Shown here piece by piece: positions 21,994 to 42,953 of a stretch of 64,000 nt of DNA. Both the position numbers and the translations under genes were made by a program. Below the pieces are notes generated by a model that had not been told where the DNA came from, searched no databases, and saw only the letters and a list, made by a program, of their open reading frames with translations. How positions within the stretch are numbered: position 1 is the first letter of the stretch; every line of letters starts with the position of its first letter. The DNA comes from a virus (lineage: Duplodnaviria > Caudoviricetes): positions 64,001 through 128,000 of the IMG/VR virus record IMGVR_UViG_3300028833_000073. One strand, given 5' to 3'.

Positions 21994-22101
21994 ATGAGAT
22001 TCTTTATATATCGTCTAGCAGAAACCACCTGCAAAAACGAATGGATCTTTGACGTAATTAATCATGTAATGTTTGATTTACTTATCACTTGTTTGCGATA
22101 A
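21994..22101 (+). CDS. 35-aa peptide MRFFIYRLAETTCKNEWIFDVINHVMFDLLITCLR inside a structured early transcript
   Basis: RBS AAGGAGG; early-type promoter at about 21916-21950; transcript ends form a perfect 17-bp inverted repeat. Confidence 0.55.
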   Translation: MRFFIYRLAETTCKNEWIFDVINHVMFDLLITCLR

Positions 22102-22201
22102 GCGACATTACCTCTGATCCTCGTTGTTGTGACTTGCAATCGCTTACGGTGGTATGAATATCACTCGCAATGTCAAACTCAAGGTACCCTATTACTTTTT
22201 G

Positions 22202-22786
22202 TCAAATAGTCTTATCTTTATATTCATTCTCATACTTTCTAGATAGAGTAACACAATACTTATTCATCTCTTCATCTTCTTCACCATTGAGAGTATATAG
22301 AATCATTGTATGGAAGTTAGCATCAAAGGTTACTGCTAGTCTACTTAGGATGTAGTATGAACTAATCATCCACCAACCAGCATCTTGCTTATCATTGAAG
22401 AGAATATCAAAGACTTCTCTATCAATACCAGTTCTATAAGCAAGAATATTAGTGTTTCTTTTTTCTATGTTTTGTTCTCTACAATACTTGAGAACTAGTT
22501 CCTTCATCCATTGGAATTCCGTATAAGGATCTCCCTTGATAGGAATAAACTCTAATGGTTCATCTATCAATCCATACAGATAGTCACAATTGACATTAAG
22601 CTCTCTTGCTATCTCGTATACAAAAGAATCTGGGAACTCGTCTCTTACATAGAAACTATGTAAGATCTCATTAAGTCTTTTATCTGTATGATGGCTATGC
22701 ATTATAAATTTATCTTTAAGACTCTCTACTTCTATTTTTTTCTCTTCACATAACCTTCTAACTCTCATGCAATTTATTGAAATCAT
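22202..22786 (-). CDS. Putative XRE-type helix-turn-helix protein (possibly two HTH domains)
   Basis: VYEIARELNVNCDYLYGL and ILAYRTGIDREVFDIL...ILSRLAVTFDANF resemble XRE HTH; ATG 22786 after RBS AAGGAGTG. Confidence 0.6.
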   Translation of the reverse strand: MISINCMRVRRLCEEKKIEVESLKDKFIMHSHHTDKRLNEILHSFYVRDEFPDSFVYEIARELNVNCDYLYGLIDEPLEFIPIKGDPYTEFQWMKELVLKYCREQNIEKRNTNILAYRTGIDREVFDILFNDKQDAGWWMISSYYILSRLAVTFDANFHTMILYTLNGEEDEEMNKYCVTLSRKYENEYKDKTI

Positions 22787-22790
22787 TATT

Positions 22791-23159
22791 TCACTCCTTC
22801 TTTCTACAAGGGTCATAATCTGGCACTTCAAAGACTCCAGATTTAACAGATTGCTCTTCTAAGTAATCTTCTAGGGTAGTTACCTTGACGACCACTTGAT
22901 TTTGCTTTTTAGAAAAATAGGCATCTTCAAGTGCCCTGTATTTTGTACATTTAGAAAAATCTATAGGTTCCTTAATAAGAGGATCCACTATAGCGAATAC
23001 ATTGCCTCGTTTTATATTAGCCATCCTTCCTCGCTTATATTGTTCATTACCATAAGCATCATCAGGTTGTCTAATATAAATCTTTCTAAGTAATCTATTG
23101 CTTCTATCATAATCATCAACTTCTAAAAACTCTTTAGGAATAACTGTAGATTCATCCAT
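22791..23159 (-). CDS. Hypothetical protein
   Basis: ATG 23159 after RBS GAGGTG; late-type promoter AACT-TCTTAA-TA upstream. Confidence 0.7.
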   Translation of the reverse strand: MDESTVIPKEFLEVDDYDRSNRLLRKIYIRQPDDAYGNEQYKRGRMANIKRGNVFAIVDPLIKEPIDFSKCTKYRALEDAYFSKKQNQVVVKVTTLEDYLEEQSVKSGVFEVPDYDPCRKKE

Positions 23160-23227
23160 TCTTATCACCTCATTAATTATTAAGAAGTTTAAGCTCCTAC
23201 CAATTATGGTAGGAGCTATAATATCCT

Positions 23228-23304
23228 TGGCGGCCCGTATTGAATTCGAATCAATGACCTAGGCTTTAGAAGAGCCTTGCTCTATCCAACTGAGCTAACG
23301 GGCC
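23228..23304 (-). tRNA. tRNA-Arg(UCU)
   Basis: GGCCCGT acceptor stem, D arm GCTC/GAGC, anticodon arm AGGCT-CT-TCT-AA-AGCCT, TTCGAAT T loop, encoded CCA. Confidence 0.95.
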
Positions 23305-23400
23305 AAGATTTTCATACTACTATGTATGTATCTATATAATTTTTAATATACAATAGATACTAAAGTAAATAATATATGTTGTAAAGGAGTGTAATTACAT

Positions 23401-23994
23401 ATGATTAGAAGATCTATTAACATGTCCATAGACAATGACTTGATAGAAAGTCTTAATAATCTTTCAATCAAAAGAAACACATCAAGATCAGATTTGATTA
23501 ATACAATACTTAGAGACAATATTGATAATTACAAAACTAAGAATGTTAGTCTCACTACATCTAACGATACTATACTTACAGCTACTATATCTAAGAATAC
23601 TATGAGTAAACTCAATGAATTACATACTAAGTATAATAGTGATAGATGTAGATATTCTTCTATAGGTAATTACTTAACTTATCTAATCAATGAAACTTAT
23701 AAAGATCATAGTGATAAACTTAAGTCTCTTAGAGATAGTATCAATAATATATACAATAAGAATAATAGAATAGGTACAAATACTAAGAGATATATAGATA
23801 GTAAATGTAGTATACTTAAACAGAATATTAAATGGTTCCAGAATGTAATAGATAATCTTAATAATTCTATTGAATTCAAGAATACTAGGAATAAAGATAT
23901 ACTACAGCATTATATCAATAGAGTAGAAGAATCTCTTAAGAGATTCAATACTTCCATAGATAACTTCAATAATAGTGATATTCCTAAGAAGTAG
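23401..23994 (+). CDS. Ribbon-helix-helix (CopG/Arc-like) DNA-binding protein, probably tandem RHH plus coiled coil
   Basis: N-terminus RSINMSIDNDLIESLNNLSIKRNTSRSDLINTIL fits the RHH pattern; second weaker copy TILTATISKNTMSKL...SIGNYLTYLI. Confidence 0.65.
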   Translation: MIRRSINMSIDNDLIESLNNLSIKRNTSRSDLINTILRDNIDNYKTKNVSLTTSNDTILTATISKNTMSKLNELHTKYNSDRCRYSSIGNYLTYLINETYKDHSDKLKSLRDSINNIYNKNNRIGTNTKRYIDSKCSILKQNIKWFQNVIDNLNNSIEFKNTRNKDILQHYINRVEESLKRFNTSIDNFNNSDIPKK

Positions 23995-24120
23995 TATAAC
24001 AATCACAACAGAAATAGGTAGTCTAATAGACTACCTATATTTTTTGACCAAATTCAAGAATAGGCACATATTATAACTGTGGCATATAGACAATGATATG
24101 TTTAGAAAGGAGGTATTACA

Positions 24121-24231
24121 ATGACTGTATTGGAAGTAGTATACTTAGACATGAATTCTAGAATCACAGTGTATGATTTTAAAATTTTACACACCACTAA
24201 CACAAGAGTAATCAAAACCAGTTTCGTATAA
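24121..24231 (+). CDS. 36-aa early peptide (MTVLEVVYLDMNSRITVYDFKILHTTNTRVIKTSFV)
   Basis: RBS AGAAAGGAGGT; early-type promoter at about 24045-24075. Confidence 0.6.
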   Translation: MTVLEVVYLDMNSRITVYDFKILHTTNTRVIKTSFV

Positions 24232-24250
24232 ATATAATATAATATAAATC

Positions 24251-24448
24251 TTGGGAGCCCAGAGCTAGGAACCAGGAGAACGGAGCTAGGAACCTACCCT
24301 TAGGATGGACTTGGAGGCTAAGAAACTCAGCAGAGGAAAAGACTAACAAAGGACAAACTAGGAGAAGGAAGGATCGAGACGGTAACACCCCAATGGAAAG
24401 AGAAGATATAGAGCCTAGGATGGTAAGGAGCGGCAGCTCCTTACATAT
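24251..24448. other. GGA-rich non-coding tract (candidate ncRNA or origin element)
   Basis: 16 GGA trinucleotides in 24254-24429; direct repeat GAGCTAGGAACC x2; terminal hairpin GTAAGGAGC/GCTCCTTAC. Confidence 0.5.
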
Positions 24449-24531
24449 ATAGGAGTGTTGAGGATAAATGAATATAATACTACTATAAGTAGAATAAGAA
24501 TAATAATCTCAATAGAAAGGATAATACTACT

Positions 24532-24843
24532 ATGAGTAGAATAAATGCATATGTACTCTATAACAAGACTAATGATGATATAGGAGTATTCAATAATCTT
24601 ACATCATGTAGAGTAGCAAGAGATACTTATAGAAAGAAGGGTAGATTATACAAGTACTCTGTAGGAACAGAGAAAGAAGCTATTAATATAGCTAGTAAGA
24701 TAATACATAGTATATTTAATCCAGAATTACCAAAAAGATACTATACATTAGTAAAACCTGTAAAGACTAATGAGATGTGTTCAATAAGAGATCTTATCAG
24801 TGAAGTACCAAGATACTATATCAAAGATGATGATATTGTATGA
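24532..24843 (+). CDS. Hypothetical protein
   Basis: 103 aa; RBS AGAAAGGAT. Confidence 0.65.
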   Translation: MSRINAYVLYNKTNDDIGVFNNLTSCRVARDTYRKKGRLYKYSVGTEKEAINIASKIIHSIFNPELPKRYYTLVKPVKTNEMCSIRDLISEVPRYYIKDDDIV

Positions 24844-24858
24844 AAGGAAGATACTACT

Positions 24859-25416
24859 ATGAGTAATAAGTTTAAAGTACGTACAAGCAGTAGTAATGAC
24901 TACTTAATCTACATGGTAACTAATAAGTTCAATAGTAAAGGATACATAGGATATACAACTAAGAAGAGAATAGAAGATGCAATAATACAAAAAATACACT
25001 TAGCAATAAACAAGACTAATCCATACTCTATGTTTGACTTAGATGTACTAAGTACTCTTAAGAAGATAGACTATAACTATGACTTCATCTATAAAGCTTA
25101 CTCTCAATTCTTACTAGATACTTTTCCATGTACTACACCAATAGATGATATCAATGATATAAAGATAGCATATATCTATAAATATCATACTTTTACTAGT
25201 GGTCTTAATGATACACTCAATGGAATCAGATATGATGAATTACTAATCTTAGTACAAGAGATTGTTGACATGTATCTTCATGGAATGCCAATAGAGAAGA
25301 TAAGTAATACAATATTCAAACCTGAAAGGATGATAGAGATAATACTGAAAGCTAACAACATAGACATCAGTAATCAACCTAAGTTAATAGATCCTCCATT
25401 CAAGATTGTAATCTGA
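24859..25416 (+). CDS. GIY-YIG-like protein (degenerate) with C-terminal HTH-like region
   Basis: YLIYMVTNKFNSKGYIGYT...IAYIYKYHTFTSGLN; the expected catalytic Glu position appears to be Lys. Confidence 0.65.
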   Translation: MSNKFKVRTSSSNDYLIYMVTNKFNSKGYIGYTTKKRIEDAIIQKIHLAINKTNPYSMFDLDVLSTLKKIDYNYDFIYKAYSQFLLDTFPCTTPIDDINDIKIAYIYKYHTFTSGLNDTLNGIRYDELLILVQEIVDMYLHGMPIEKISNTIFKPERMIEIILKANNIDISNQPKLIDPPFKIVI

Positions 25417-25523
25417 TAATACTCATACTATAATAAAATACTACCATCGTTAAGATGGTAGTATTTTATTTTTTATAAATTGATATACATCATCATAAGA
25501 TATAAAAGGAGGTAAGATACCTT

Positions 25524-26882
25524 ATGATAATCACATTTGAAGGTCCTGATTGTTCAGGTAAAACTACACAAGCAAAATCATTAGTGGAGTACATTAATAA
25601 GTACTATCCTAAGTTACATGCAATATATAAGCACTTTCCTAATCATGATAGGAAAGATATACAATTGATTCTACATGATAAGGATGCTAATATTAGTAAT
25701 CCTTATTACATTGCTAGTAGTTATATGAATGAATTCTTCTATGAATTCAATAGTAATGAAAAGTATACTACAGCAGATAACAAAGTAACACTAACATTCA
25801 AAGAAGCAGCTAGAAGAAAGGATGTAGTATTAGTATTAGATAGATACTACTATTCTTCTCTTATCATGTGTCCTCATTGGCCTAACAAGTATGACAATAT
25901 CAAGGATATGACTAGTGAACAAAAAACACAGAAGAATGAATATATTAAGAATCTCTTTGGAGTAACTGGATTACTACTACAGAAGTTTGAATTACCTAGA
26001 CCTGATCTTACTATTGTACTAATTCCTGATAAAGATGAGATGATTAAAAGGATCAGTGAGAAGACAACTATAAAAGAATCAGATAAGTTTGAGACTATAA
26101 AGAAAGCAGAAGAGTTCTATTATGATTACTTAGATTCTATTCTTGATGGTGATGCTTCTATCTATCATATGAATGGAGAGTGGTTTAATCCAGTAGTAAT
26201 CAACAATAGAAAGACTGCATATATTCCTACATCAAAGAAGACTAGTAAGATGGATTCAATTCTACAAGACTATTGTTCAGATATCCTAGATAATACAAAG
26301 GATATCAAAGAAACTAAACTGATGGTAGAAGGAGTATTTGAATCATATCTAAAGACTATCTGTAGAATTACTAATGATAATGAAGAGAAGTCAATCTATA
26401 TCTTCAAAGTAAGTAAGAAAGATCTTGATATATATGAATCTTGTTATAATGATCCTAAAGATAGTGAAGAGACTAAGGAAGAAGAACATGCTACTGGATT
26501 ACTCAATCCAGTAAAAGAATATGACCTTAGTAAGAAAGAAGAGGTTGCATTCTGTAAGATTGGACATCCTACTCCTTACAATGTAATCAATTCTCCTGAT
26601 AAGTATATCTTATCTAAACAATATCCTACTAATGAAAGAGTAATGGTACTTAATATCTTACTTAAGATTCTTAGAGCTGACTATACTAAAGATCAGTTCC
26701 CATCTGCTAAGATTGATGAAGTTACTAGATATATCTATAGGAAGATTGAACAGTTACATGCAGGTTCTGTAGTAAGTACGGAAGGTGGTAAGGTTGAATA
26801 TACTAGAGAAGATAAAGAAGACAACTCAGGAGATCAACCCATTGAAGGAACAAAAGCAGAAGGAAACAAAAAAGAAGAATAG
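25524..26882 (+). CDS. tmk: Thymidylate (dNMP) kinase with long C-terminal extension
   Basis: IITFEGPDCSGKTTQ P-loop; VLVLDRYYYSS; PRPDLTIVL. Confidence 0.85.
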   Translation: MIITFEGPDCSGKTTQAKSLVEYINKYYPKLHAIYKHFPNHDRKDIQLILHDKDANISNPYYIASSYMNEFFYEFNSNEKYTTADNKVTLTFKEAARRKDVVLVLDRYYYSSLIMCPHWPNKYDNIKDMTSEQKTQKNEYIKNLFGVTGLLLQKFELPRPDLTIVLIPDKDEMIKRISEKTTIKESDKFETIKKAEEFYYDYLDSILDGDASIYHMNGEWFNPVVINNRKTAYIPTSKKTSKMDSILQDYCSDILDNTKDIKETKLMVEGVFESYLKTICRITNDNEEKSIYIFKVSKKDLDIYESCYNDPKDSEETKEEEHATGLLNPVKEYDLSKKEEVAFCKIGHPTPYNVINSPDKYILSKQYPTNERVMVLNILLKILRADYTKDQFPSAKIDEVTRYIYRKIEQLHAGSVVSTEGGKVEYTREDKEDNSGDQPIEGTKAEGNKKEE

Positions 26883-27771
26883 TAGTTTAAAGACATTGTT
26901 CTTATGGGATAATGAACCTCTACTCTATAGAGATAATAGAGGTTCTTTTATATGGGCTATACAGATGATAAATCCTGATGAGAGTATGCTAGAGGATTTG
27001 GTTACCTTCTTAGAGGTAACACCTAAGCATGTTACTCATAGATCAGGATCTATTCTATCCATACTTATCTCACTGAACGTATACGATATAATGAACATCC
27101 TAAGAGATAATAGATTCCCATATTCTAGATTGTATAATGAATTTGTTAAGGATGTAGAGTTAGAAGTTCCTGGTAAATATATTCATAGCTATATAACAAA
27201 TAATTTACATTTAGAATTTGCTAGAGAAGAGATAAAACCACAGACTGATGATTACTTCAATGAGAATGATAAAGAATCACTAGCACTGAAGGATAAGTAT
27301 GATATCAAGTATGTATCAGAGAATGTAAAGGTTGTAGGATTAGATATACCTAAGAATATCTATGAGAAGGTAACTAACTTCATTGGTCTTTTAAATCCTA
27401 ATGGTATAAGCTATAATACTTGCTTACAGCTATGCAGGATAACTTTTGATATCACTAACATAGAAGATAGAGACTATGGGAGGTCATTCTCATATAACTT
27501 CCATGATCTATATACTATGATGAAGGATGAACTACTTAATGATGACCCTGGTCCTTATATTGACCTTAAGTATTTACTAGAATCTGAGGGAGAAATAACT
27601 ATTGACTTAGATAATGATCTTGATATATCCAAGATCAATCCTTGGTCAGATAGTGATGAAGATGTTGATGATATTCTTAGTACTGAAGAAGAGATTATAG
27701 ACTCATCTAAAGTACCCGATTCAAACTACATTGGTAAAGAAGGAGAGAATAATAATGGCAATGAGAAATGA
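26785..27771 (+). CDS. Hypothetical protein
   Basis: 328-aa ORF in the operon; start uncertain (overlaps tmk). Confidence 0.7.
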   Translation: MVRLNILEKIKKTTQEINPLKEQKQKETKKKNSSLKTLFLWDNEPLLYRDNRGSFIWAIQMINPDESMLEDLVTFLEVTPKHVTHRSGSILSILISLNVYDIMNILRDNRFPYSRLYNEFVKDVELEVPGKYIHSYITNNLHLEFAREEIKPQTDDYFNENDKESLALKDKYDIKYVSENVKVVGLDIPKNIYEKVTNFIGLLNPNGISYNTCLQLCRITFDITNIEDRDYGRSFSYNFHDLYTMMKDELLNDDPGPYIDLKYLLESEGEITIDLDNDLDISKINPWSDSDEDVDDILSTEEEIIDSSKVPDSNYIGKEGENNNGNEK

Positions 27772-28483
27772 TTATGAGCCTACTAGTGACACTTATGTAA
27801 AGAAGTTTGATAAGCTTAGTGATGGTTTTAAGGAGTTACAGAAGGTAACCAATGATCCCAATATTGAAGGTATTACATTTGATGGATGTGAATCTTTCTT
27901 AGATGAATACAAGGCTATTGCAAAGCATTGCTCTAATATTGTTCTTGATGATAATAACTTCCCTAACTTTATGGGAGAAGACTTCCCTGATGTATATGGA
28001 GTAAGTATCTTTGGTAATCGTTTCTATTTCCGTACCAATGATATCTATAGCTTCTCATTCAATATCAATACAAGAGATATTGATACAGTAGATGCTGAGC
28101 TTTTATCCATGTATATCAGTATCAAGAAGCCACATAATCCTGTTGCAGTAGTCAACTACAATAAAATTGTAAAAGAGCTAAATGATCTAGGCTGGTCAGT
28201 ACATGAAAGTCGCCGTCGTCGTAATTCATTTGGTTATCGTCGTGGTGCTGATAGCTATTTAGTTAATCATATGGTTGACAATAGACTTCAGGCCACTACT
28301 AAGAAGAACACTATTGGACATGACGTTGTAACTACTTCTTCTGAAGAAGAAGGAGACGTATATGTAGCAACTTCTATTCCTATTGACAGTGGTAAGATCA
28401 CTAATGCTATGAATAAGCTTAATGATCTTAACTCTGCTGAGAAGGAAGCATTGTCTAAAGCTCTTGGTAGTGATAATTCCTGA
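27755..28483 (+). CDS. Hypothetical protein
   Basis: ATG 27755 after AAGGAGAG; terminator at about 28507-28540. Confidence 0.75.
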   Translation: MAMRNDYEPTSDTYVKKFDKLSDGFKELQKVTNDPNIEGITFDGCESFLDEYKAIAKHCSNIVLDDNNFPNFMGEDFPDVYGVSIFGNRFYFRTNDIYSFSFNINTRDIDTVDAELLSMYISIKKPHNPVAVVNYNKIVKELNDLGWSVHESRRRRNSFGYRRGADSYLVNHMVDNRLQATTKKNTIGHDVVTTSSEEEGDVYVATSIPIDSGKITNAMNKLNDLNSAEKEALSKALGSDNS

Positions 28484-28604
28484 ACAGCCTAGTAACATAG
28501 AAAATAAGAATGTAGAGCCTTCTATGGCTCTACATTTCTTTTGACCAAATCTAAAAATGGGCATATATTATAGATGTAGCCAAAAGAAGAAAGGATGTGA
28601 TAAA

Positions 28605-29300
28605 GTGGGCATTATAAGAACAGATAGGCCTAAGCCTAGTGAGTACTTCAAAATGCAAAGGGAGTTGAAGAACAATAAGTTTCTGAAAAGATCAGAAAGG
28701 AAGAAAATCATTCGTAAGCTTAATGAGAGGAGGAAGTATTTATCATCCATAGCGGTATGCCAAGTATGGATGTGTGAGCAGGAAGATGATGAAGAAGTAT
28801 ATAAGATTGAGTCTAAAGGAATTACCGAGAAGACTCGTCCTATGCTAGTGTCTATGTGTCATGGAGACAATATTACTGTGTATCCATTGACCACTAGTGA
28901 GAATGCTACTGAGAGGTGTAAGATATACCATAGAATGTGGGATGGATCTGGTATCTGTCTTACAGAACAGCTTAAAGCATTTACAAGAGTTAAGTTCTGG
29001 TTCTATATGAATACAATAGACTTCAGAGAACTAGAAGAGATCAATAATCAATACGCAAAGGAGTTGCTAAAATCAAGAGTACCTACCCTAACGAAGGAAA
29101 CCACCATTCCTTCATATGAGATCAATATGGATAGGAAGCTAGTTACCACTACGGACAAAAGAACTTATTCTCCAGATATCGTTAAATATATCGTAGATAA
29201 CTGGAGTCTATTACCTATGAACAATATCTTGTCGGCATGTAAGGGTTTAAACAGACACGATGTATACAATATTGCTAATGCTAACTTTAGTACAATATAA
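28605..29300 (+). CDS. MazF/PemK-like endoribonuclease-fold protein with N- and C-terminal extensions
   Basis: QVWMCE...KGITEKTRPMLVS...ITVYPLTTS...SGICLTEQLKAF...ELEEINNQY matches the PemK/MazF pattern; GTG 28605 after RBS AGAAAGGATG; early-type promoter just upstream. Confidence 0.6.
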   Translation: MGIIRTDRPKPSEYFKMQRELKNNKFLKRSERKKIIRKLNERRKYLSSIAVCQVWMCEQEDDEEVYKIESKGITEKTRPMLVSMCHGDNITVYPLTTSENATERCKIYHRMWDGSGICLTEQLKAFTRVKFWFYMNTIDFRELEEINNQYAKELLKSRVPTLTKETTIPSYEINMDRKLVTTTDKRTYSPDIVKYIVDNWSLLPMNNILSACKGLNRHDVYNIANANFSTI

Positions 29301-29314
29301 GGGAGAGATTTATA

Positions 29315-34571: not shown

Positions 34572-34665
34572 AACTTATGGGTGCTCTCACCAAGCACCCT
34601 TTTTCTTTTTATTAATCCACCATACAACTCAATGGTAAATGACGTAATCAAAGGAGGCTATAATA

Positions 34666-35256
34666 ATGTCTTTGATGGAAACGATAAAGAGATTTGGTAA
34701 TACAGAAACATTTGTTACTGAGAGTATGGAGGTTGAGCTAGGACTAGAGGATGCTATCAATGAGTATTCAGGTCTAGCTGTTACTCCTACTAGGGTTGCA
34801 TTCCCTGCTAGTCAGGTTCCTGTAGCAGAATTTGCTGATCCTAGTCTACCATGTAAATATGGTGTTTCGGCGGATATTTTTTCAATCTTTATGGAGCGTA
34901 ATGGTCTAAAAGATATTCAAGAGGCTATGTCTACTATCGCTATGTCTAATGGTATTTCTTCTAAGGACATTATGCTTGTAATGGATAGTGATGATGTCAT
35001 TAGGAGAACTATTGACGAAGCTAAGGTAGATCCTAATACTATCACTCGTAAAGAGAAGCTTACTAATATCGCTAAGGTTGGTAAGCTAATACAACATAGT
35101 AGAGAAACTGGAGTCTTTGTGGCTAAAGAGCCTAATGTAGAGAACCCTCCAGTATATCAAGTTCAATGGAATGACAATCCTAACATTGTCAACATTGAAA
35201 GAGATACTTGTGATCTTGGTCTATTTTCTGATGAGCGTCAGCTCACCTTCAAGTAA
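34666..35256 (+). CDS. Putative virion (inner head) protein
   Basis: Late-type promoter AACT-CAATGG-TA at about 34627; N-terminal FVTES/AINE motifs resemble head-protease sites. Confidence 0.55.
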   Translation: MSLMETIKRFGNTETFVTESMEVELGLEDAINEYSGLAVTPTRVAFPASQVPVAEFADPSLPCKYGVSADIFSIFMERNGLKDIQEAMSTIAMSNGISSKDIMLVMDSDDVIRRTIDEAKVDPNTITRKEKLTNIAKVGKLIQHSRETGVFVAKEPNVENPPVYQVQWNDNPNIVNIERDTCDLGLFSDERQLTFK

Positions 35257-35259
35257 GCA

Positions 35260-35441
35260 ACAAACAATCTCCTACCAATACGGTAGGAGATTTATTTGCT
35301 AAGTTATTATGTGAGAATTATATGAAAGGAGGTAATGCACATGAAAAACCATATGCGTAATGTGAGATAATGTTAGTTACGCAAACAAGTGTAACCGAAG
35401 TGTACCCAAAGGAAAAGCTGAATTGCCCACAAGCTTACCTT
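35260..35441 (-). ncRNA. Putative late small RNA carrying the ACUUGUUUGC hairpin and an anti-RBS/anti-AUG segment
   Basis: AACA-AAATAA-TA promoter at 35452; GUUAC-ACUUGUUUGC-GUAAC hairpin (35395-35376); UUUUUCAUGUGCAUUACCUCCUUUCAU; terminator at about 35265-35295. Confidence 0.6.
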
Positions 35442-35531
35442 ATTATTTTGTTATGACCAAAAAAATATATAGACACATATTATATATGTGGTGGTATTGG
35501 GTAAAATTCTAATAGAAAGGAAGGAATAACA

Positions 35532-36266
35532 ATGGCCACGTATACAAGACTTGATATGCAATCACAGATATTTGAAGAAGGAGTTTTGAATATATTTACA
35601 GATGCCAGTATCAATCCCTTGGGAAATAATAAATGGGATGGATGTGCTGGTGCAATACCTGTAACTTATGATCATAAGATTAATAATCTTACGGAATATA
35701 TACCGATGATAAGAGTGTTTAGAGATTGCACTAATAATATTGCAGAACTTTCAGCCATAGAGATGGCATGTGAGTTTGCAGTAAGCAATCAATCTAAGTA
35801 TGTCAGAATCAATCTCTTTAGTGATTCTGAGTATAGTATTAAGACGTTGAAAGAATGGATTTTTAATTGGGCCAAAGTATCATGCCGTGATGGTATTGAA
35901 GGCTTTAGAAATCTTAGAAAGAGTGATGGTAACTTAGTAAAAAATCATACCATCATCATAAATATTATCAACAAGATTTTGTCAATAGATCCTAGACAGT
36001 GTGGCTTTAATGTGTACCATGTAAAGGCTCACACTAACGGGGACAGTAAGAAAGTACAAGAGCAGTTTAAGAAAGCTAATAAGATATCTATTAATATCTT
36101 AGATGCTGATATCTTAGCTTACTACAATGACAAAGTAGATAATCTTACAAGAGATATCTTACTTAGCAATGAAAGTAGTTATTATGAGTGTGAGGTAGTA
36201 CCATATGCAATACTTCCTTATGCTTTTAATAAATATAAGAGAATTATAGGTTCAAGGAGGTTCTAG
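35532..36266 (+). CDS. rnhA: Ribonuclease HI
   Basis: IFTDAS, TNNIAELSAI, LFSDSEYSI, HVKAH and YNDKVDNL catalytic motifs. Confidence 0.9.
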   Translation: MATYTRLDMQSQIFEEGVLNIFTDASINPLGNNKWDGCAGAIPVTYDHKINNLTEYIPMIRVFRDCTNNIAELSAIEMACEFAVSNQSKYVRINLFSDSEYSIKTLKEWIFNWAKVSCRDGIEGFRNLRKSDGNLVKNHTIIINIINKILSIDPRQCGFNVYHVKAHTNGDSKKVQEQFKKANKISINILDADILAYYNDKVDNLTRDILLSNESSYYECEVVPYAILPYAFNKYKRIIGSRRF

Positions 36267-36268
36267 TT

Positions 36269-36598
36269 ATGTATGCTAACTATGAGTGTCTCGTTTTTAC
36301 CAAAAGGATTAAAGCGATCGCTGACCAACAGATGAGAGATAAGCTCTTAGGCTATTGTATTAGGCTTATCTTCAAACACCACTTTGGTGAAGGTGCTAAG
36401 GGACTTGACTTTATTGAGGACTTTGTAGTGGATGCTTCACTTGCTTACTACTACTCAAGAGAACTCAATCTGTTAAACTTCATGAAGCAGTATATCAAGG
36501 ACTATACTCTCATGGAAGATCAGAGTCTTGTAGGTAAGATCAGTGTCAATATCAACAACTTTGGTAGTGATATTGATGCATTGTTCAAGGATATCTAG
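36269..36598 (+). CDS. Hypothetical protein
   Basis: 109 aa; RBS AAGGAGG. Confidence 0.75.
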   Translation: MYANYECLVFTKRIKAIADQQMRDKLLGYCIRLIFKHHFGEGAKGLDFIEDFVVDASLAYYYSRELNLLNFMKQYIKDYTLMEDQSLVGKISVNINNFGSDIDALFKDI

Positions 36599-36670
36599 AA
36601 TAGGTTTCTAATCTATCTAGAATATATAAGTATAGGTAATTTAATTGTTTATGAAAGGATGTATGGTACA

Positions 36671-37804
36671 ATGGCAAGAAAAGTTATTAAGCTTACTCCG
36701 GAGCAGGTTAAAGCTCTTGAGGAACAGATCAAGAAGATTGAAGGATTCGATGTAAAAGTCGAAGAGAAGAATGAGAAACCTGATGAGTTTATCAATGTTT
36801 CTGATGTTACAATGGATACTTGTAGGTCTATCAAAGTACCTGGTTGTAACGATAGCGCTCTTAGGAATGATATCTATGCAAACGCATTTGATATTGATAA
36901 GCACAATTATGACTTTATCCATACTTTGCGTGATAAGTCTGATTATATGAATAAGGCAATGAAGTATTTTGAGAATGAGTATGAAACTACTATCAATGAT
37001 TCTGGTATTGGTAGTTGTGATGTTACTGTGGAGGATAAGTTTAACTCTTATCCCAGTGGATGTATGCTTGGAGCTGTAATTCCTGGTATCAATAGTGCTA
37101 TTAGGTTTGTCGAGGCCAATAACTATTTCACTAGGGATATCTCTCCTGATGAGAAGCAGTCTATTATCAATTCTCATAATCTGAACTTCAATACCACAGC
37201 AAATAGTATTATTCGTACTATGGTAGATGATATTCAGAATGCTTTCTCTGGGCTTATCGTCAAACATGCTCTTACACAGGAGGAGATGGATAATCTTCTT
37301 AAGACTAAACAAAGGCTGAATACGCTTCTTAAGCAAGATGAAGTTGTTAATTTTACGCCGTCTGATATTTCTAGCTATTCTGGTTGGACTATGCCTACTA
37401 ATAGTACGGAGCTCTTCACCTTGTTTACCACTCTTAGGAACTTCCATAGTGTTACTAACTATAATGACGAGGATCAGATCATTATTAGTGGTAATACTTT
37501 GAACTACTATGTCGAGTGTATCTACAATTATGCAACGACATCGTTCTTCCAATTCCTTCGTTACAGGTTTGCTGATAATGAGTATAAGGAAGACATTATG
37601 TCTCGTATCTCTCTTGAGTTTGAGACGAACTTTGGATTTGAGATGCGTCGTTATATTGCAGCTACTCTTAAGGAGATTGCAAGGATTGCGACTATCTATC
37701 TCATGAATCTCAAAGTCCTTAATAGTTATCCGAAGACGTGTGAAAAGTATGAAGAGAGTAATCGTTTGATCAATCCTCCTTTCCATTATAGGCCTGGATT
37801 CTGA
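36671..37804 (+). CDS. Hypothetical protein with C-terminal RLINPPF motif
   Basis: About 377 aa; RBS GAAAGGATG. Confidence 0.75.
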   Translation: MARKVIKLTPEQVKALEEQIKKIEGFDVKVEEKNEKPDEFINVSDVTMDTCRSIKVPGCNDSALRNDIYANAFDIDKHNYDFIHTLRDKSDYMNKAMKYFENEYETTINDSGIGSCDVTVEDKFNSYPSGCMLGAVIPGINSAIRFVEANNYFTRDISPDEKQSIINSHNLNFNTTANSIIRTMVDDIQNAFSGLIVKHALTQEEMDNLLKTKQRLNTLLKQDEVVNFTPSDISSYSGWTMPTNSTELFTLFTTLRNFHSVTNYNDEDQIIISGNTLNYYVECIYNYATTSFFQFLRYRFADNEYKEDIMSRISLEFETNFGFEMRRYIAATLKEIARIATIYLMNLKVLNSYPKTCEKYEESNRLINPPFHYRPGF

Positions 37805-37856
37805 GCAAACAAAATCTTAGAGATATATTATAACTAGGAGAAAGGAGGAAAGTGTA

Positions 37857-38576
37857 TTGGTTTTCTACAATAATAACCAAGGTAACTTTCCTGCTTCTCC
37901 TATAGGTAATCAGGCAATGGCATCACAGCCATTGCCTATGATTCCTGTGGGACAGCAGCAGGGTTATTCAACGTACAATGGGTACTTTAACCCATGGGAA
38001 ATACAAAGGAGGCAAGATGAACAACTAAAGAATTATAATAACAATATCAATATGCAGATTGATATATATAAGAGACTATATATCAATTCATGTAAGAACC
38101 TGGGCATATATGTGGATGAACAAGCAGTAGATGAGTACTATAATCAGTTTAGACCATCGACTACTAGTACATATGATATGCTCAAGAAACAAAAGGAAAT
38201 AGCCGAGGAACAAAAGATAGCAGAAGCTGTACAGAGGGCCAATGGTCAAGGGTCTATGTTAGCTAATGCCCAGATGAAGATCTGGTATGATCAAGAAGAA
38301 AAGAATCAAAAAATATATGAAGGTAAGTCATTGCAAGAACAGTATGAAGCATTGACAGTGGCTGCCTTCGATATGAGAATGGATGAGGCTAAGAGACAGA
38401 ATAAGAATATGAAAAATAGCTATAACAATAGTGCATATCAGAAGCTTATAGCATCTAATGGTCAAGGACTATTCTCTACCAATATAGATGACATGGAAGT
38501 TACCTTACCCAATAACTTGTCTGGTACTTATCAGTCTAGAAGGGCTAGGTTCCTTGCAGCAGTCTTAGGGAAGTGA
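37857..38576 (+). CDS. Hypothetical Q/N-rich protein
   Basis: TTG start after AAAGGAGG; early-type promoter at about 37820. Confidence 0.75.
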   Translation: MVFYNNNQGNFPASPIGNQAMASQPLPMIPVGQQQGYSTYNGYFNPWEIQRRQDEQLKNYNNNINMQIDIYKRLYINSCKNLGIYVDEQAVDEYYNQFRPSTTSTYDMLKKQKEIAEEQKIAEAVQRANGQGSMLANAQMKIWYDQEEKNQKIYEGKSLQEQYEALTVAAFDMRMDEAKRQNKNMKNSYNNSAYQKLIASNGQGLFSTNIDDMEVTLPNNLSGTYQSRRARFLAAVLGK

Positions 38577-40342
38577 TGTCTATGAAGTTTGATCCATTAG
38601 AGTTATTCTATGCTAAGCAAAAGACGAATGCATTGAATTTCGACTTTGAAGGATTAATGGGTCCTATTATTCCCAATCTACTTCCACCAAGTATAGATTC
38701 ATATCTATATAGCTTAGCTACCCATCCAAAGTATTCATCTAAAATAAAGATGAAGTTTGATTTGATAGACAGAGCTGTAAATGATTATGGATTCGTATTG
38801 ATGGGAAGAGGGACCAATCGTTGCATCTACAAACATCAGATTGATGGTAGGATAATGCTTAAGATAGGGTTTGATAGAGCAGGTATTACAGATGCTTATA
38901 AAGAACTCTATAACATGAACTATCTTAAGCCATTTGTTACAAAGTGTTTCGATGTAAGTCCCACTGGTACTATAGGTTTATTCGAGAGAGTCATTCCGAT
39001 AACCTATAAGGATGAGTTTATATCTGTAGCTGGGGATATATTCGATGTGATAACCAAGTGTTTCATCGGTAAGTATATCCTTGCAGATATAGGTACTAAG
39101 TTTTATATGAACTGGGGGATAAGAAAGGGATTTGGTCCAGTTCTTCTGGACTATCCTTTTATGTATCTTCTAGATGGAAGAAAGTTACATTGTATCAATC
39201 AAGTTCCGTCACCAATTGGCATGGTAATGTGTAATGGCTTAATAGATTATGATGAGGGTTTCAATCACTTGAAGTGTACTAAGTGTGGCAAGACCTACTT
39301 TGCATCTGATCTAGCCAAAGAAAACAAAGAAGGCCAATTGGAAATATATGGTGCAAGATTAGGAGGAAAGATGAAAATGTCTACAGGAGAGTATTACATC
39401 AATGGAAAGAAAGTAAGTGAGGAAGAGGTAATGGCTCGTTATTTCGGAGATAAGTCCAATAACAATTATCCGGATAACAATAGGGTATTTGAAGCTGCAC
39501 CACCTCCAGTTCCGCCCAGTTATGAAAGGAAGAGGGCAGAAGCTGAGAGGAAGATGAGACAGCAGCAGAACAATACTCCTCGTCAGAGCCAGCCTCATAA
39601 TAACAATAATAGGAATGATCGTCCTAAGGAAACAAGAGTAGAGTATATGTATCGTTACGCTAAGTATACTCTTAAGCGTATGATAAAGGCATCTCGTAAT
39701 GAACTCGATCTTGGTAATATCGCATATGCTCTTGTTGATCTTATCATGAACACGAATAATAGTAGTGGTCAGAAAATTGAGAGGAAGGAAGTAATAGCAA
39801 AAGCTCAAGAGCTTGCTCAGGAAGCATTGAATGAGTTTGTTGAGGATTGTAAGAGGTTGAATAATAATCCTACACCTCCTAATAATCCTCGTCCTCAGCC
39901 GAATCCTGCACAAGCAAAGATGCAGGAGAATGTAAAGAAGACAGTAGTAGAACCTACACAGACAGCAACATTATCTCCGGCTCAATCTGTCGCTATTGTA
40001 CCTGAGATTGTTGAAGCCGAAGTAGTAGATGATTCTCCTACTGAAGAGGATGATGCAGAGATTCTGAGTGAAGTAGAACAGCTTCATGCAAATGATGCTG
40101 ATCAGGTAAATGATATCGTTGATGCTATTGATAATCTTAGTACCGCTGTAGAAGAAGGTAAGAAGATTGCTGAAGCAAACAATGGTATCTCTCCTACTAC
40201 TCAGGAAGGATTGAATAGGATTAAGCAGATCAATGACATGGGTAATAATGCACCCCATGTAAAGAAGGAAGAAGCAAAGCCGGCACCTAAACCAAATCCT
40301 CCTCAGAAGATTCCTGGAACAGGTATGGCTTTCACTTTCTAA
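38573..40342 (+). CDS. Protein-kinase-like protein with Zn ribbon and disordered C-terminus
   Basis: MGRGTNRCIY (Gly loop), IMLKIG, YKE, LADIG...NWG, VLLDYP; C..C and CTKC Zn ligands; P/Q/N/E-rich tail. Confidence 0.7.
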   Translation: MMSMKFDPLELFYAKQKTNALNFDFEGLMGPIIPNLLPPSIDSYLYSLATHPKYSSKIKMKFDLIDRAVNDYGFVLMGRGTNRCIYKHQIDGRIMLKIGFDRAGITDAYKELYNMNYLKPFVTKCFDVSPTGTIGLFERVIPITYKDEFISVAGDIFDVITKCFIGKYILADIGTKFYMNWGIRKGFGPVLLDYPFMYLLDGRKLHCINQVPSPIGMVMCNGLIDYDEGFNHLKCTKCGKTYFASDLAKENKEGQLEIYGARLGGKMKMSTGEYYINGKKVSEEEVMARYFGDKSNNNYPDNNRVFEAAPPPVPPSYERKRAEAERKMRQQQNNTPRQSQPHNNNNRNDRPKETRVEYMYRYAKYTLKRMIKASRNELDLGNIAYALVDLIMNTNNSSGQKIERKEVIAKAQELAQEALNEFVEDCKRLNNNPTPPNNPRPQPNPAQAKMQENVKKTVVEPTQTATLSPAQSVAIVPEIVEAEVVDDSPTEEDDAEILSEVEQLHANDADQVNDIVDAIDNLSTAVEEGKKIAEANNGISPTTQEGLNRIKQINDMGNNAPHVKKEEAKPAPKPNPPQKIPGTGMAFTF

Positions 40343-40408
40343 TGAGACTATAACCAGTATATAAGCCCTATCATATGATAGGGCTTGTCTGGTTTGAAAT
40401 GAGGTGTA

Positions 40409-41089
40409 ATGATGTTTAAAGGGGATATCTTTATAACGGATGATTTCCAACTTGCAACTACTCTTAGCTATGATAGTAGATATAGAGTTTTTGCATTGAT
40501 GGATAACTATGAACTAGAGTTTGGTAAGAATAGTAATGTTATTGGTATGCCGTTCTTACTTCCTCCATACAATGCATTAGAGGAAGAGAATATTGGTAAT
40601 CTTCAAAATTTTTATAATATTTACTATCAGCACCTGGCTAGCGCTGAAGCAGATAATTATATCACTACATTACTTACAGGGCTCTATAGAGGTTTCAATA
40701 TCCTTTTCTATGTTCCTAAGGATGAAGCCCAACTAGAGTTCAGTAAAGCACTGTTGAGATATATCCATGATGTATTTGGAGTCACTATTGGTAGCAAGGA
40801 TAACAACCAATGTGGTTTCAATGTAGCCTTTGAAGACACAGTAAGAATCAAGATGTACTTCTATGGTAATATTCCTGCTATGGATCTAGTGCAGAACATA
40901 AAGAGCAAGATCATGGATCCATTTATCTGTGATCGTATGTGTAATGATCTCGGTATTAGTCCTGGTAATAATTCTGTAGAAGCTATAGATCAATATATTA
41001 GAAACTATAGGAATAGCCAGAATGTAGTACAAGTACCAGCTCCTAGGAAACTTATAGATCCTCCATTTAAGATAAGAGGATTTGAGTGA
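40409..41089 (+). CDS. Hypothetical protein (paralog of 41099-41638) with C-terminal KLIDPPF motif
   Basis: LLPPY...YYQHL...NILFY...LLRYIHDVFGV. Confidence 0.75.
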   Translation: MMFKGDIFITDDFQLATTLSYDSRYRVFALMDNYELEFGKNSNVIGMPFLLPPYNALEEENIGNLQNFYNIYYQHLASAEADNYITTLLTGLYRGFNILFYVPKDEAQLEFSKALLRYIHDVFGVTIGSKDNNQCGFNVAFEDTVRIKMYFYGNIPAMDLVQNIKSKIMDPFICDRMCNDLGISPGNNSVEAIDQYIRNYRNSQNVVQVPAPRKLIDPPFKIRGFE

Positions 41090-41098
41090 GGTGCAATC

Positions 41099-41638
41099 AT
41101 GATCTTAGTAATGAATAGTGAATTCTTCATTCAGAATATAAAGAATGATATGAAGATTATGGATAATTCATTTGTTCTTAGCTGGGATTCTCAGTTAACT
41201 CCAGAGGCAGCAGGATGTCCTATTTGGAGTAGTAGGCATCTTGTTCCTCCAGAGGGAATTAGTAATGACTATGATTATACTAATTACTTATACTTCAATG
41301 ATAAGGCTATGGAGTTAATAGCTATCATTGGGTATATGATTAAGACGAATAACATAGTTATCATTCTCTCTAATGGTAATTATGCTGAAGACTTCCTATA
41401 CATGTTCTTGAAGTTTATCCAGAACAGATATGGAATAGTGTATAGAGATGTGAAGTGTCTTGAAGATATTCCTGAAGTTCCAGGAGATACAGATAGCTTT
41501 AGCATTCAAGGACTCTATAACTTCAATGCCTATGACAATAATAGAGTTGTTAGGTATATAGAGTCACTTAAGATATCTGATCCTGACTTTAGGATGTTCT
41601 TTGAACAGAATCTGAATGAGAAAGCAGCAGAGCTATGA
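41099..41638 (+). CDS. Hypothetical protein (paralog of 40409-41089)
   Basis: LVPPE...YTNYL...NIVII...FLKFIQNRYGI. Confidence 0.75.
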   Translation: MILVMNSEFFIQNIKNDMKIMDNSFVLSWDSQLTPEAAGCPIWSSRHLVPPEGISNDYDYTNYLYFNDKAMELIAIIGYMIKTNNIVIILSNGNYAEDFLYMFLKFIQNRYGIVYRDVKCLEDIPEVPGDTDSFSIQGLYNFNAYDNNRVVRYIESLKISDPDFRMFFEQNLNEKAAEL

Positions 41639-42426
41639 AGCTATATGAGAAGGTGAATTATACTCAAGATATAGCGCTCTTAAAGAATGCTAATATCTAC
41701 GAGTATGATATTGCTAAGGCTAATATATCTGTCCTCTTAAATAGGGGACAGATATCATCTTCTCTATATGACTTTCTTTTTAATCAAGACAATATGGTTA
41801 GAAAGATCATGGTAGGTAATATGGAGAAGACTAATAAGAATCTTATTAAAGAGAAACAACAAGGTATCATTGATGCTAAGAAGTATCTCTTTGAAGCTAA
41901 TCATATAGATGATAACGAAGTTCTCTCGATAAAGAATGATGCTGTATTCGTTACAAGGGAACTAGATAAACTTGAGTATGGTAATGCTAGATTCACACTA
42001 AGGAATAGATATAATCTCTTTATTAGAATCCTAAGATTACAATTCTTCTATCTTCTAGATCAAGTGAATGATATAGAGGTATTAGATATAAAGGGTATAA
42101 GAGATGAGGTTATAGAGAAGCAAGAGGAGTATATGATTGACTTCATTAAGACTCTATTGTTTACCTTTAAGACAGAAGGATCTGATAAGACATTGCTCTT
42201 ATTAAGAACATTCAATCATAATTATATGAATAAGAAGTTAGATATCAACTACTATAGGGACTTATACACAGGTAAGTTCCCATTGAATACAGATAGTGTA
42301 GTCTTTTCATATAATGCAGATGCTCTTAGTCAAGACCTTGTAGATTCTGTCGATATAGTAAACAATGGATCATTCCTTAGAGCTATATCGAAAGTATTCT
42401 ATACTGAGTATCTTAGGCAGAAATGA
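41635..42426 (+). CDS. Small DNA-polymerase-palm-like protein
   Basis: IYEYDIAKAN (motif A-like), VLSIKNDAVFV (motif C-like) and IKGI; no exonuclease domain. Confidence 0.55.
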   Translation: MKLYEKVNYTQDIALLKNANIYEYDIAKANISVLLNRGQISSSLYDFLFNQDNMVRKIMVGNMEKTNKNLIKEKQQGIIDAKKYLFEANHIDDNEVLSIKNDAVFVTRELDKLEYGNARFTLRNRYNLFIRILRLQFFYLLDQVNDIEVLDIKGIRDEVIEKQEEYMIDFIKTLLFTFKTEGSDKTLLLLRTFNHNYMNKKLDINYYRDLYTGKFPLNTDSVVFSYNADALSQDLVDSVDIVNNGSFLRAISKVFYTEYLRQK

Positions 42427-42461
42427 GTCCTCACCATAACGGTGAGGATTTTATTTTTTGC

Positions 42462-42953
42462 ACTAAATACCTCCCATCCGAAGATGGGAATAGTATCTAG
42501 CTCAACGCAAACAAGTGTTGATTACTTTAGAAAGGATCGCTTACAGAAAAATACGTGCTGGCTACTTTTATGTTAGTACTATATCAAAGACTAAATACCT
42601 CCCATCCGAAGATGGGAGTAGTATCTAGCTCAACGCAAACAAGTGTTGATTACTTGAACATATTCCTGCCGAAAAAAATTCTTTGCATATTTTTATGTTA
42701 GCACTATATTAAAGACTAAATATCTCCCATCCAAAGATGGGAGTATATCTAGTTCTAACGCAAACAAGTGTTAGATGAACGAACCAAAGTTATGATTTCT
42801 CACCCATGAGTAATCCCCATTATATTGTTATAAAGAAATTAAAAGTTACAGGACCTCCATCCTGCAACTTTTAATTTTTGGTGTATCAGCAATGACTAAA
42901 ATAACCACAGAGAAGAACTATCATTTTCTGCTCTATAGCTATACTATAGTGTT
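42462..42953 (-). repeat. Tandem array of four promoter-sRNA-terminator units (period about 125-128 bp), three with a conserved hairpin-plus-terminator block
   Basis: Promoters AACA-N6-TR at 42574, 42699, 42829 and 42953; near-identical 66-bp blocks at 42462 and 42590 and a diverged third at about 42715; unrelated 35-45-nt segments between them. Confidence 0.8.

What the first reader, a model, noticed from the sequence alone, without database searches (positions are those of the whole stretch)
22081..42775. Dispersed hairpin with invariant ACTTGTTTGC loop and four different covarying stems
Seen: the 10-nt loop occurs at 22087-22096 (+; stem CTTATC/GATAAG), 35381-35390 (-; GTTAC/GTAAC), 42507-42516 and 42635-42644 (-; TCAAC/GTTGA) and 42760-42769 (-; TCTAAC/GTTAGA). 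It is always closed by C-G and always in the sense orientation relative to the nearest upstream phage promoter. A degenerate ACACGTTTGC lies in sRNA 3 (about 21759). Inference: compensatory stem changes around a fixed loop indicate selection on an RNA structure recognised by a factor. This links loci 20 kb apart, under early and late promoters, into one system.
Basis: seen in the sequence. Interest (0 to 1): 0.85.

Follow-up and report, generated by a model that had tools for sequence, protein, structure and literature searches.

The report
Shared hairpin handle of phage sRNAs
An uncultured giant phage that brings its own RNA polymerases carries a small RNA hairpin with an unchanging 10-base loop and freely changing stems in six short non-coding transcripts; related phages have it too and no catalogue lists it, so it is a real new RNA motif whose binding partner is still unknown.

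Summary
ACTTGTTTGC occurs five times in the window (0.03 expected) and a sixth time elsewhere in the 158-kb record. All six copies sit between 5-8 bp inverted repeats; 0.9% of random 10-nt windows do. Five of six lie 42-51 nt after an AR9-type late promoter motif (AACA-N6-T-A/G) and before a terminator, so they are short promoter-to-terminator RNAs. The sixth lies in an early-type unit, on the stop codon of a 35-codon ORF.

The same loop with other stems occurs in a relative with 65% vRNAP identity and in a second, very different RNAP-encoding phage (G001). Across 11 hairpins, 82% of cells pair (26-35% when slid) and 0 of 500 shuffles reach the covariation score. G-U wobbles run 9:1 for the motif strand, so the structure is RNA.

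No Rfam family matches. Cultured relatives (AR9, S6, LPJP1, phiR1-37) lack it. I found no phage target for the loop or the 5' segments, and a coding reading fails.

Best reading: the docking module of a sibling-sRNA family, most likely for a protein (about 0.45) or otherwise for an RNA. The core also reads as a late-promoter consensus, which is unexplained.

The parts
21940..21947 (+). Early-type promoter core (TATATTAT class) in front of the site-1 RNA
   Evidence: 38 copies of this 8-mer in the genome. About 25 are intergenic with conserved upstream boxes and a same-strand gene downstream. The review PMC7598289 describes AT-rich -10-centred early promoters for vRNAP.
21953..22202 (+). Predicted site-1 transcript. 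Its 5' end (21953-21969) pairs with its 3' end (22181-22197), followed by a U-run. It contains a 35-codon ORF (21994-22101) with a Shine-Dalgarno sequence.
   Evidence: Sequence; 17-nt perfect inverted match; MFE fold keeps both the clamp and the hairpin.
22081..22102 (+). Hairpin copy 1: 6-bp stem, loop 22087-22096. It overlaps the stop codon of the small ORF.
   Evidence: model R1 gives 32.5 bits.
35441..35452 (-). Late-promoter motif (AACA-N6-TA) of the site-2 sRNA; predicted +1 at 35441
   Evidence: the motif ends 51 nt before the loop.
35375..35396 (-). Hairpin copy 2: 6 bp, of which the outermost is G-U. In the 92%-identical relative L132 that pair is G-C.
   Evidence: R1 gives 35.0 bits.
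35266..35292 (-). Terminator ending the site-2 sRNA (about 175 nt); works in both directions
42818..42829 (-). Late-promoter motif (AACA-N6-TG) of array unit 5; +1 at 42818
   Evidence: 49 nt before the loop.
42754..42775 (-). Hairpin copy 5: 6-bp stem. It differs from units 3 and 4 by a compensated one-base insertion in each arm.
   Evidence: R1 gives 34.4 bits.
42724..42743 (-). Terminator stem of unit 5
42688..42699 (-). Late-promoter motif of array unit 4; +1 at 42688
   Evidence: 44 nt before the loop.
42630..42649 (-). Hairpin copy 4: 5-bp stem
42599..42618 (-). Terminator stem of unit 4
42563..42574 (-). Late-promoter motif of array unit 3; +1 at 42563
   Evidence: 47 nt before the loop.
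42502..42521 (-). Hairpin copy 3: 5-bp stem
42471..42490 (-). Terminator stem of unit 3. A further two-way terminator follows at 42428-42448.

Best explanation
The hairpin is an RNA module carried by a family of short phage transcripts ('sibling' sRNAs). Each unit is a phage promoter, 0-50 nt of unit-specific sequence, the hairpin, sometimes more unit-specific sequence, and an intrinsic terminator. Five units use the AR9-type late promoter read by the non-virion RNA polymerase; one uses an early-type promoter. The lower stem only has to pair, so it drifts by compensatory change. The top of the hairpin (A-U and C-G pairs plus the 10-nt loop, which probably folds further into A.C, C-G and U.U with a UGUU apex) is held constant because it is the docking surface for one trans-acting partner. 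I think the partner is most likely a protein, phage- or host-encoded. The RNAs would then either deliver that protein to targets through their CU-rich anti-Shine-Dalgarno-like stretches or soak it up late in infection. Shown here: the motif, its RNA-level covariation, its strand, its place inside promoter-to-terminator units, and its conservation in distant phages. Inferred: actual transcription, the fine structure of the loop, and the existence and nature of the partner.
For: The loop is enriched (5 found against 0.03 expected) and 6 of 6 genomic copies have stems (background 0.93%). Covariation over 11 hairpins from four or five phages: 81.8% of cells pair against 26-35% when slid, score 0.826 against 0.20 shuffled, 0 of 500 shuffles, and all six inner pairs show double changes. 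There are nine G-U wobbles on the motif strand against one position that would be a wobble only on the other strand; the 17-bp stem in G001 has four G-U pairs. A late-promoter motif ends 42-51 nt upstream in 5 of 6 copies, against a background of 1.7-2.2% per position. Terminators follow on the same strand. The loop is identical in L129/L127, whose surrounding sRNA sequence is unrelated, and in G001, which shares almost no detectable protein with G000. The smallest unit, in L126, is promoter, hairpin at +3 and terminator, so the hairpin itself is the functional part. The hairpin appears in the minimum-energy fold of 4 of 6 predicted transcripts. No complementary phage target was found for the loop, which leans towards a protein or host partner.
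Against: No candidate binding protein was identified. Only about half of the roughly 297-kb genome is held, so a phage RNA target could sit in the missing part. The loop has YUNR-type U-turn sequences (CUUG, UUUG), which are typical of RNA-RNA recognition loops. The closest sampled relative (74% vRNAP identity, L124/L131) lacks the hairpin at both syntenic loci, so the module is dispensable or replaceable.
Confidence: 0.45

Rival explanations
1. The loop is an RNA-RNA recognition element, a seed or kissing loop with a U-turn. It pairs with a conserved 8-10-nt sequence in a host RNA or in a phage RNA encoded in the unsequenced half of the genome. The sibling sRNAs would then share one target.
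For: The loop contains YUNR motifs at its 5' side (sequence). Conserved loops on variable stems are the usual layout of sibling sRNAs and antisense RNAs (general knowledge). G000 and G001 share little except a tail-fibre-like protein, which suggests related hosts and hence a shared host target. From memory only, untested: 9 of 10 loop bases could pair, with one G-U, with the conserved 16S rRNA segment just 5' of the 790 loop.
Against: No sense-strand complement of 9 nt or more exists in the 158 kb of G000 or the 57.8 kb of G001 apart from the hairpins' own opposite strands. The 7-8-nt matches are scattered inside coding regions and not at ribosome-binding sites. Duplex energies with the phage tRNA and neighbouring ncRNAs are at background level. 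The invariance extends into the two top stem pairs, which a seed would not need.
Confidence: 0.25
2. The core relates to the phage non-virion RNA polymerase. Either the DNA is an internal late promoter (the core reads WACA-N6-TG with +1 at loop base 9), or the RNA hairpin presents UGUU, the uracil template-strand -11..-8 element, and acts as a decoy or brake for the sigma-like subunit, as 6S RNA does for bacterial RNA polymerase.
For: The AR9 consensus is 5'-AACA-N6-T-A/G(+1), read on the template strand as single-stranded uracils, and that enzyme can initiate on single-stranded DNA (PMC9209446, PMC7598289). The core matches AACA-N6-TG in 4 of 9 distinct hairpins and WACA-N6-TG in 8 of 9. I estimate the chance of such a match in a fixed 12-mer at about 1%. 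Folding puts UGUU at the apex. A variant loop changes U3.U8 to A3-U8.
Against: The N6 and +1 of the core do not resemble the N6 preferences of the gene-proximal late motifs here (purines before TA, +1 A). A transcript starting at loop base 9 could not form the hairpin, so the RNA-level covariation and G-U excess would be unexplained. Real late promoters do not conserve N6, yet all 10 loop bases are fixed. AR9 strictly needs U at -11, which the TACA-type hairpins lack. No -1/+1 element lies in register with the UGUU apex.
Confidence: 0.12
3. It is a DNA-level element: a cruciform, hairpin promoter or operator, or a recombination cassette comparable to the promoter-stem-loop cassettes of T4-type phages, which would explain the copy-number changes between relatives.
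For: Unit number and position differ between relatives: 3, 2 or 1 copies at the array locus, 1 or 2 at the RNase H locus, and none in L131. Tandem duplication is evident. N4-type polymerases use hairpin promoters (general knowledge).
Against: The 9:1 G-U asymmetry means the opposite-strand hairpin would carry A.C mismatches, four of them in the G001 17-bp stem. An operator for a dimeric protein would conserve the arms and not the spacer. Only the 14-nt core is shared between distant phages, with no extended homology as expected for a mobile cassette.
Confidence: 0.08
4. The motif encodes the C-terminus of small peptides (frame ACT TGT TTG CGN followed by a stop).
For: In G000 all six copies have a stop codon 0-2 codons after this frame, and copy 1 ends a 35-codon ORF with a good Shine-Dalgarno sequence.
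Against: Units 3 and 4 have no start codon in frame. In L129 the frame runs on for 7 and more than 30 codons after the motif. Nucleotide invariance without synonymous change is not what a 4-residue peptide tail would produce.
Confidence: 0.02

Closest known systems
Sibling sRNA families with a conserved loop, such as Listeria LhrC1-5 (tandem sRNA genes, each with its own promoter and terminator)
   Same: Several small genes, partly in tandem, each a self-contained promoter-to-terminator unit. They share a short invariant single-stranded motif presented on hairpins, and they carry CU-rich anti-Shine-Dalgarno-like stretches.
   Different: There the conserved loop motif (UCCC) is itself the anti-SD seed. 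Here the invariant loop is not SD-complementary, no target is known, the genes are phage-encoded, and they are driven by phage-polymerase promoters. There is no sequence or Rfam relationship.
Protein-titrating or protein-docking hairpins: CsrB/RsmZ GGA loops, the lambda boxB-N complex, the MS2/PP7 coat-protein operators
   Same: An invariant loop and top of stem, a freely covarying lower stem, and multiple copies per genome. This is the pattern expected when a protein reads the apex.
   Different: There is no GGA motif and no boxA, and no downstream operon to antiterminate, because every unit ends at a terminator. The loop is 10 nt. No partner protein is identified.
6S RNA (an RNA mimic of an open promoter that sequesters RNA polymerase)
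   Same: The hairpin core contains the polymerase's own promoter words (WACA-N6-TG; UGUU at the apex), and the RNA is made by that polymerase late in infection.
   Different: 6S RNA is a roughly 180-nt rod with a large central bubble. Here there is a hairpin of about 22 nt, and no binding is shown. The resemblance may be chance.
AR9/PBS1-type late promoters
   Same: The AACA-N6-T-A/G motif lies upstream of 5 of 6 units and of late-looking genes. The phage encodes an AR9-like virion RNA polymerase beta subunit (about 30% identity).
   Different: The hairpin itself is absent from AR9, S6, LPJP1 and phiR1-37.

Membership tests
Any Rfam 15 family | Covariance-model score at or above the gathering threshold | tested here: not met
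   The gathering scan of the whole window finds only a group I intron and a tRNA. Permissive E-value scans of the three loci give only sub-threshold chance hits, mostly on the terminators.
Lambda-type nut site (boxA + boxB) | A hairpin downstream of a promoter and upstream of terminators that must be read through into an operon; a boxA element | tested here: not met
   Every unit ends at its own terminator 4-110 nt after the hairpin, with no gene behind it on that strand. No shared linear box lies next to the hairpin.
CsrA/RsmA-binding sRNA | GGA or ANGGA in the hairpin loops, many per RNA | tested here: not met
   The loop has no GGA, and there is one hairpin per unit.
Guide RNA of TnpB/Cas12-type nucleases (a reading in earlier notes) | A cognate nuclease gene in the genome | tested here: not met
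   PF07282 is absent from the held parts of G000 and G001.
Guide RNA of TnpB/Cas12-type nucleases (a reading in earlier notes) | A variable segment that matches a target | tested here: not met
   The 5' segments have only chance-level matches in the phage. The smallest unit has no 5' segment at all.
AR9-type late promoter (for the core itself) | 5'-AACA-N6-T-A/G(+1), with uracils required at template -11 and -10 | tested here: inconclusive
   There is a full match in 4 of 9 distinct hairpins. TACA or ATCA in the others would lack the -11 U (PMC9209446). Activity cannot be tested with these tools.
N4-type DNA hairpin promoter | A DNA hairpin of 5-7 bp with a 3-nt loop, read by a single-subunit virion polymerase | tested here: not met
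   The loop is 10 nt, the polymerases here are multisubunit, and the G-U asymmetry argues for RNA.
Type I toxin-antitoxin mRNA (copy 1 only) | A small hydrophobic toxin ORF, a 5'-3' clamp and a cognate antisense RNA | tested here: inconclusive
   The clamp and a 35-codon ORF are present. The peptide is only partly hydrophobic and no antisense partner was identified.

The most novel reading that the evidence does not exclude
The hairpin is an RNA mimic of the phage's own late promoter. It displays, as ribo-uridines at its apex, the UUGU word that AR9-type non-virion RNA polymerases read as single-stranded deoxyuridines. A family of late (and one early) sRNAs would thereby bind and tune the sigma-like subunit or holoenzyme. 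This would be a phage-polymerase counterpart of 6S RNA, and a biological use for that enzyme's unexplained taste for single-stranded uracil templates.
Probability: 0.08. Interest if true: 0.9.

Novelty: new variant of a known kind. Interest (0 to 1): 0.55.

Why it matters
As far as I know, regulatory RNAs of giant phages that transcribe with their own multisubunit polymerases are largely uncharted. This is a statistically solid, uncatalogued RNA motif. It ties six small transcription units of one phage together and persists, base for base, in phages that otherwise share almost nothing. Such conservation implies a specific partner. Finding it (an RNA-binding protein, the phage polymerase or a host RNA) would reveal a post-transcriptional or polymerase-level control layer in this phage group. 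The motif also gives a compact search handle (model R1) for related uncultured phages.

Tried and rejected
1. Coding reading (TCLR followed by a stop): rejected, because units 3 and 4 have no start codon and the stop is not conserved in L129.
2. Phage targets for the loop complement: only scattered 7-8-mers inside genes.
3. Guide-like targets of the 5' or 3' unit-specific segments: blastn-short gives chance-level hits only.
4. The ATTACCTC-type second motif as an anti-RBS seed: its complement lies near only one gene start.
5. Pairing of the loop with the phage tRNA-Arg or neighbouring ncRNAs: background energies.
6. Rfam: nothing.
7. IMG/VR scans. The 14-mer core gave 117 or more mostly chance hits and one real relative, G001. 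The promoter-plus-core pattern gave 32 chance hits.
8. JGI metagenome scan with promoter plus core: 64 hits, none a real hairpin.
9. Protein-based searches of IMG/VR for relatives found none. Whole contigs of the ENA and Logan relatives are not searchable, so I walked them in 20-kb steps.
11. TnpB is absent from G000 and G001.
12. A PemK-like protein occurs in hairpin-positive and hairpin-negative phages alike, so it does not discriminate.
13. Cultured dU jumbo phages lack the motif.
14. The 74% relative has a look-alike word at the array locus, but it lies inside a stem and not in a loop.
15. One search was a wasted pattern search.
Full report
WHAT THE WINDOW IS
The window is bases 64001-128000 of a 158,305-bp IMG/VR virus record, estimated 64% complete. 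A 296,790-bp contig with an identical RNase H protein exists elsewhere. The 2112-residue ORF at 14956-21294 matches jumbo-phage RNA polymerase beta subunits. It is about 30% identical to those of AR9/PBS1, Staphylococcus S6-like phages, Listeria LPJP1 and Yersinia phiR1-37. The AR9 counterpart is annotated as a virion RNA polymerase subunit. A dCMP deaminase and a thymidylate-kinase-like gene fit the uracil-DNA biology of that group. Sigma-70-type promoters are fewer than expected.

Two phage promoter classes are visible. One is a TATATTAT class with conserved upstream boxes, with about 25 intergenic copies in front of genes. It matches the description of AT-rich, -10-centred early promoters of virion polymerases (PMC7598289). 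The other is AACA-N6-T-A/G, the published AR9 late consensus, which AR9 reads on the template strand as uracils (PMC9209446 and PMC7598289). That motif is 2.4-fold enriched in intergenic DNA here.

THE OBSERVATION
The 10-mer occurs exactly five times in the window, where 0.03 are expected, at the stated places. A sixth copy lies at genome 154007 (+). Every copy is flanked by 5-8 contiguous pairs, whereas 0.93% of random 10-nt windows have 5 or more. One-mismatch copies have no stems. A covariance model built from 11 hairpins (A2, R1) finds only these six in the whole record and does not pick up the 21759 variant.

CONTEXT
Five of the six copies have a late-promoter motif ending 42-51 nt upstream on the same strand. 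The background is 1.7-2.2% per intergenic position. Each of the five is followed by an intrinsic terminator on that strand: in the window at 35292-35266, 42743-42724, 42618-42599 and 42490-42471, and for the sixth copy seen in the sequence. They are therefore short, ORF-less promoter-to-terminator units. Three stand in tandem at 42462-42829, and a fourth unit without the hairpin lies at 42830-42953.

Copy 1 (22081-22102) lies about 140 nt downstream of an early-type promoter. Its RNA pairs 5' end to 3' end through 17 perfect base pairs. The hairpin overlaps the stop codon of a 35-codon ORF with a good ribosome-binding site.

RELATIVES
RNA polymerase homologues show a large uncultured clade, and I walked several contigs.
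- A phage 92% identical in DNA (L132-L135) has the same hairpins. One G-U becomes G-C, and one stem is shifted by a register.
- A phage with 65% vRNAP identity (L127/L129) has the exact loop at both syntenic loci with new stems, plus a variant loop (U3 to A). These sit in sRNA-like units whose other sequence is unrelated.
- A 68% relative (L126) has a variant loop (A1 to U) in a minimal unit: late promoter, hairpin starting at +3, terminator.
- The 74% relative (L124/L131) has other late sRNA-like units at both loci but no such hairpin.
- A second IMG/VR phage (G001, 57.8 kb) encodes its own RNA polymerase beta subunit and a terminase. It shares almost no detectable protein with G000. It carries two units with the identical loop on 9-bp and 17-bp stems, antisense between its terminase gene and the next gene.
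- AR9, LPJP1, S6 and phiR1-37 have nothing above chance.
- Further IMG/VR and JGI metagenome scans found no other true copies.

RNA OR DNA
Over the 11 aligned hairpins, 81.8% of cells pair, against 26-35% in slid controls. The six inner pairs show double changes in 1-6 sequences each; the outermost seventh pair is unpaired in 9 of 11. The covariation score is 0.826 against 0.20 in shuffles, with 0 of 500 reaching it. Some rows are close relatives, but the stems of W1, W2, W3, W5, W6, the L129 copies and the G001 copies are independent. Within contiguous stems there are nine G-U wobbles on the motif strand. Only one position would be a wobble solely on the opposite strand. Together with the promoter and terminator orientation, this puts the structure in RNA transcribed from the motif strand. 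It argues against a cruciform, an operator or an opposite-strand leader. The strong RBS-plus-mini-ORF seen on the opposite strand at several units is then the shadow of CU-rich anti-Shine-Dalgarno-like tracts in the sRNAs.

WHAT IT IS NOT
- It belongs to no Rfam family.
- It is not coding. The in-frame stops seen at 6 of 6 copies in G000 are absent in L129, and units 3 and 4 have no start codon.
- It is not a nut-like antiterminator, because nothing lies behind the terminators.
- It is not a guide-plus-handle RNA. No TnpB-type gene is present, no targets exist for the variable segments, and the L126 unit has no variable segment.

HOW IT MOST LIKELY WORKS
The pattern is a drifting lower stem, an invariant apex of about 14 nt, several copies per genome, and identity across phages that share little else. 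This is the signature of a docking site for one trans-acting partner. Folding always pairs loop C2 with G9, leaving A.C and U.U oppositions and a UGUU apex. The L129 variant would convert U.U to A-U.

I favour a protein partner (0.45). The invariance reaches into the top stem pairs, and no complementary RNA exists in the 216 kb examined. An RNA partner in the host or in the unsequenced half remains a serious rival (0.25). In its favour, the loop has U-turn-type words, and G000 and G001 share a tail-fibre-like protein that hints at related hosts.

UNEXPLAINED
On the transcribed strand the core reads as the late-promoter consensus itself: AACA-N6-TG in 4 of 9 distinct hairpins and WACA-N6-TG in 8 of 9. 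Its apex, read 3' to 5', is the UUGU word that AR9's non-virion polymerase recognises as single-stranded uracils. This could be chance (my estimate is about 1%), an internal promoter, or a promoter-mimicking RNA. The last reading is the most novel one not excluded (0.08).

VERDICT
This is a real, conserved, uncatalogued RNA hairpin module of a phage sRNA family, with its partner and function unknown.

Noticed in passing
window 62335-62563 (-): Group I intron (Rfam RF00028, 73 bits) lying within the long minus-strand ORF 62398-63984.
   Followed up: no
window 23228-23304 (-): Phage tRNA-Arg(UCU). The 74% relative has one too (L124:17900-17974).
   Followed up: partly
whole genome, e.g. window 12828, 28564, 32128, 32510, 37824, 58441: About 25 early-type promoters share an extended pattern: a conserved box of roughly 11 nt, about 14 nt of spacer, then TATATTAT. 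A second subclass has a different upstream box, to which the site-1 promoter belongs. Sigma-70-like promoters are depleted.
   Followed up: partly
window 21953-22202 (+): The site-1 early RNA has a 17-bp 5'-3' clamp and a 35-codon ORF with a Shine-Dalgarno sequence, an architecture like a type I toxin mRNA. No antisense partner was found.
   Followed up: partly
window 35300-35345 (-); genome 154060-154095 (+); L145:8370-8400 (-): Hairpin-bearing sRNAs carry CU-rich stretches that resemble the 3' end of 16S rRNA. On the opposite strand these read as strong ribosome-binding sites followed by mini-ORFs of 6-12 codons.
   Followed up: partly
window 14956-21294 (+): The virion RNA polymerase beta-like subunit carries an N-terminal extension of about 1100 residues containing a GNAT acetyltransferase domain. 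Homologues in the clade carry varied N-terminal cargo, for example M23 peptidase and transglutaminase-like domains.
   Followed up: no
window 2-11383 (-) and beyond: A giant ORF of about 21 kb (about 7100 codons in the genome). Its relatives carry lysozyme, amidase and M23 domains.
   Followed up: no
L126:17300-18406; L132:5572-6669: TnpB (IS605 OrfB) genes are inserted in two relatives but are absent from the corresponding places in G000.
   Followed up: partly
window 43679-44083 (+); 25524-26882 (+): A dCMP deaminase and a long thymidylate-kinase-like protein, consistent with a uracil-DNA phage like AR9/PBS1.
   Followed up: no
L141:2527-3684 (genome 130427-131584) and G001 12165-13322 (-): A 385-residue tail-fibre-like protein (39% identity) is the only clear protein match between the two partial genomes that share the hairpin. 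This may reflect a shared host range.
   Followed up: partly
L131:18915-19063 (-): In the hairpin-negative relative, the syntenic late unit keeps words similar to the loop and its upstream flank, but they pair with each other around an inserted GNRA-capped helix (z-score -5.4).
   Followed up: partly
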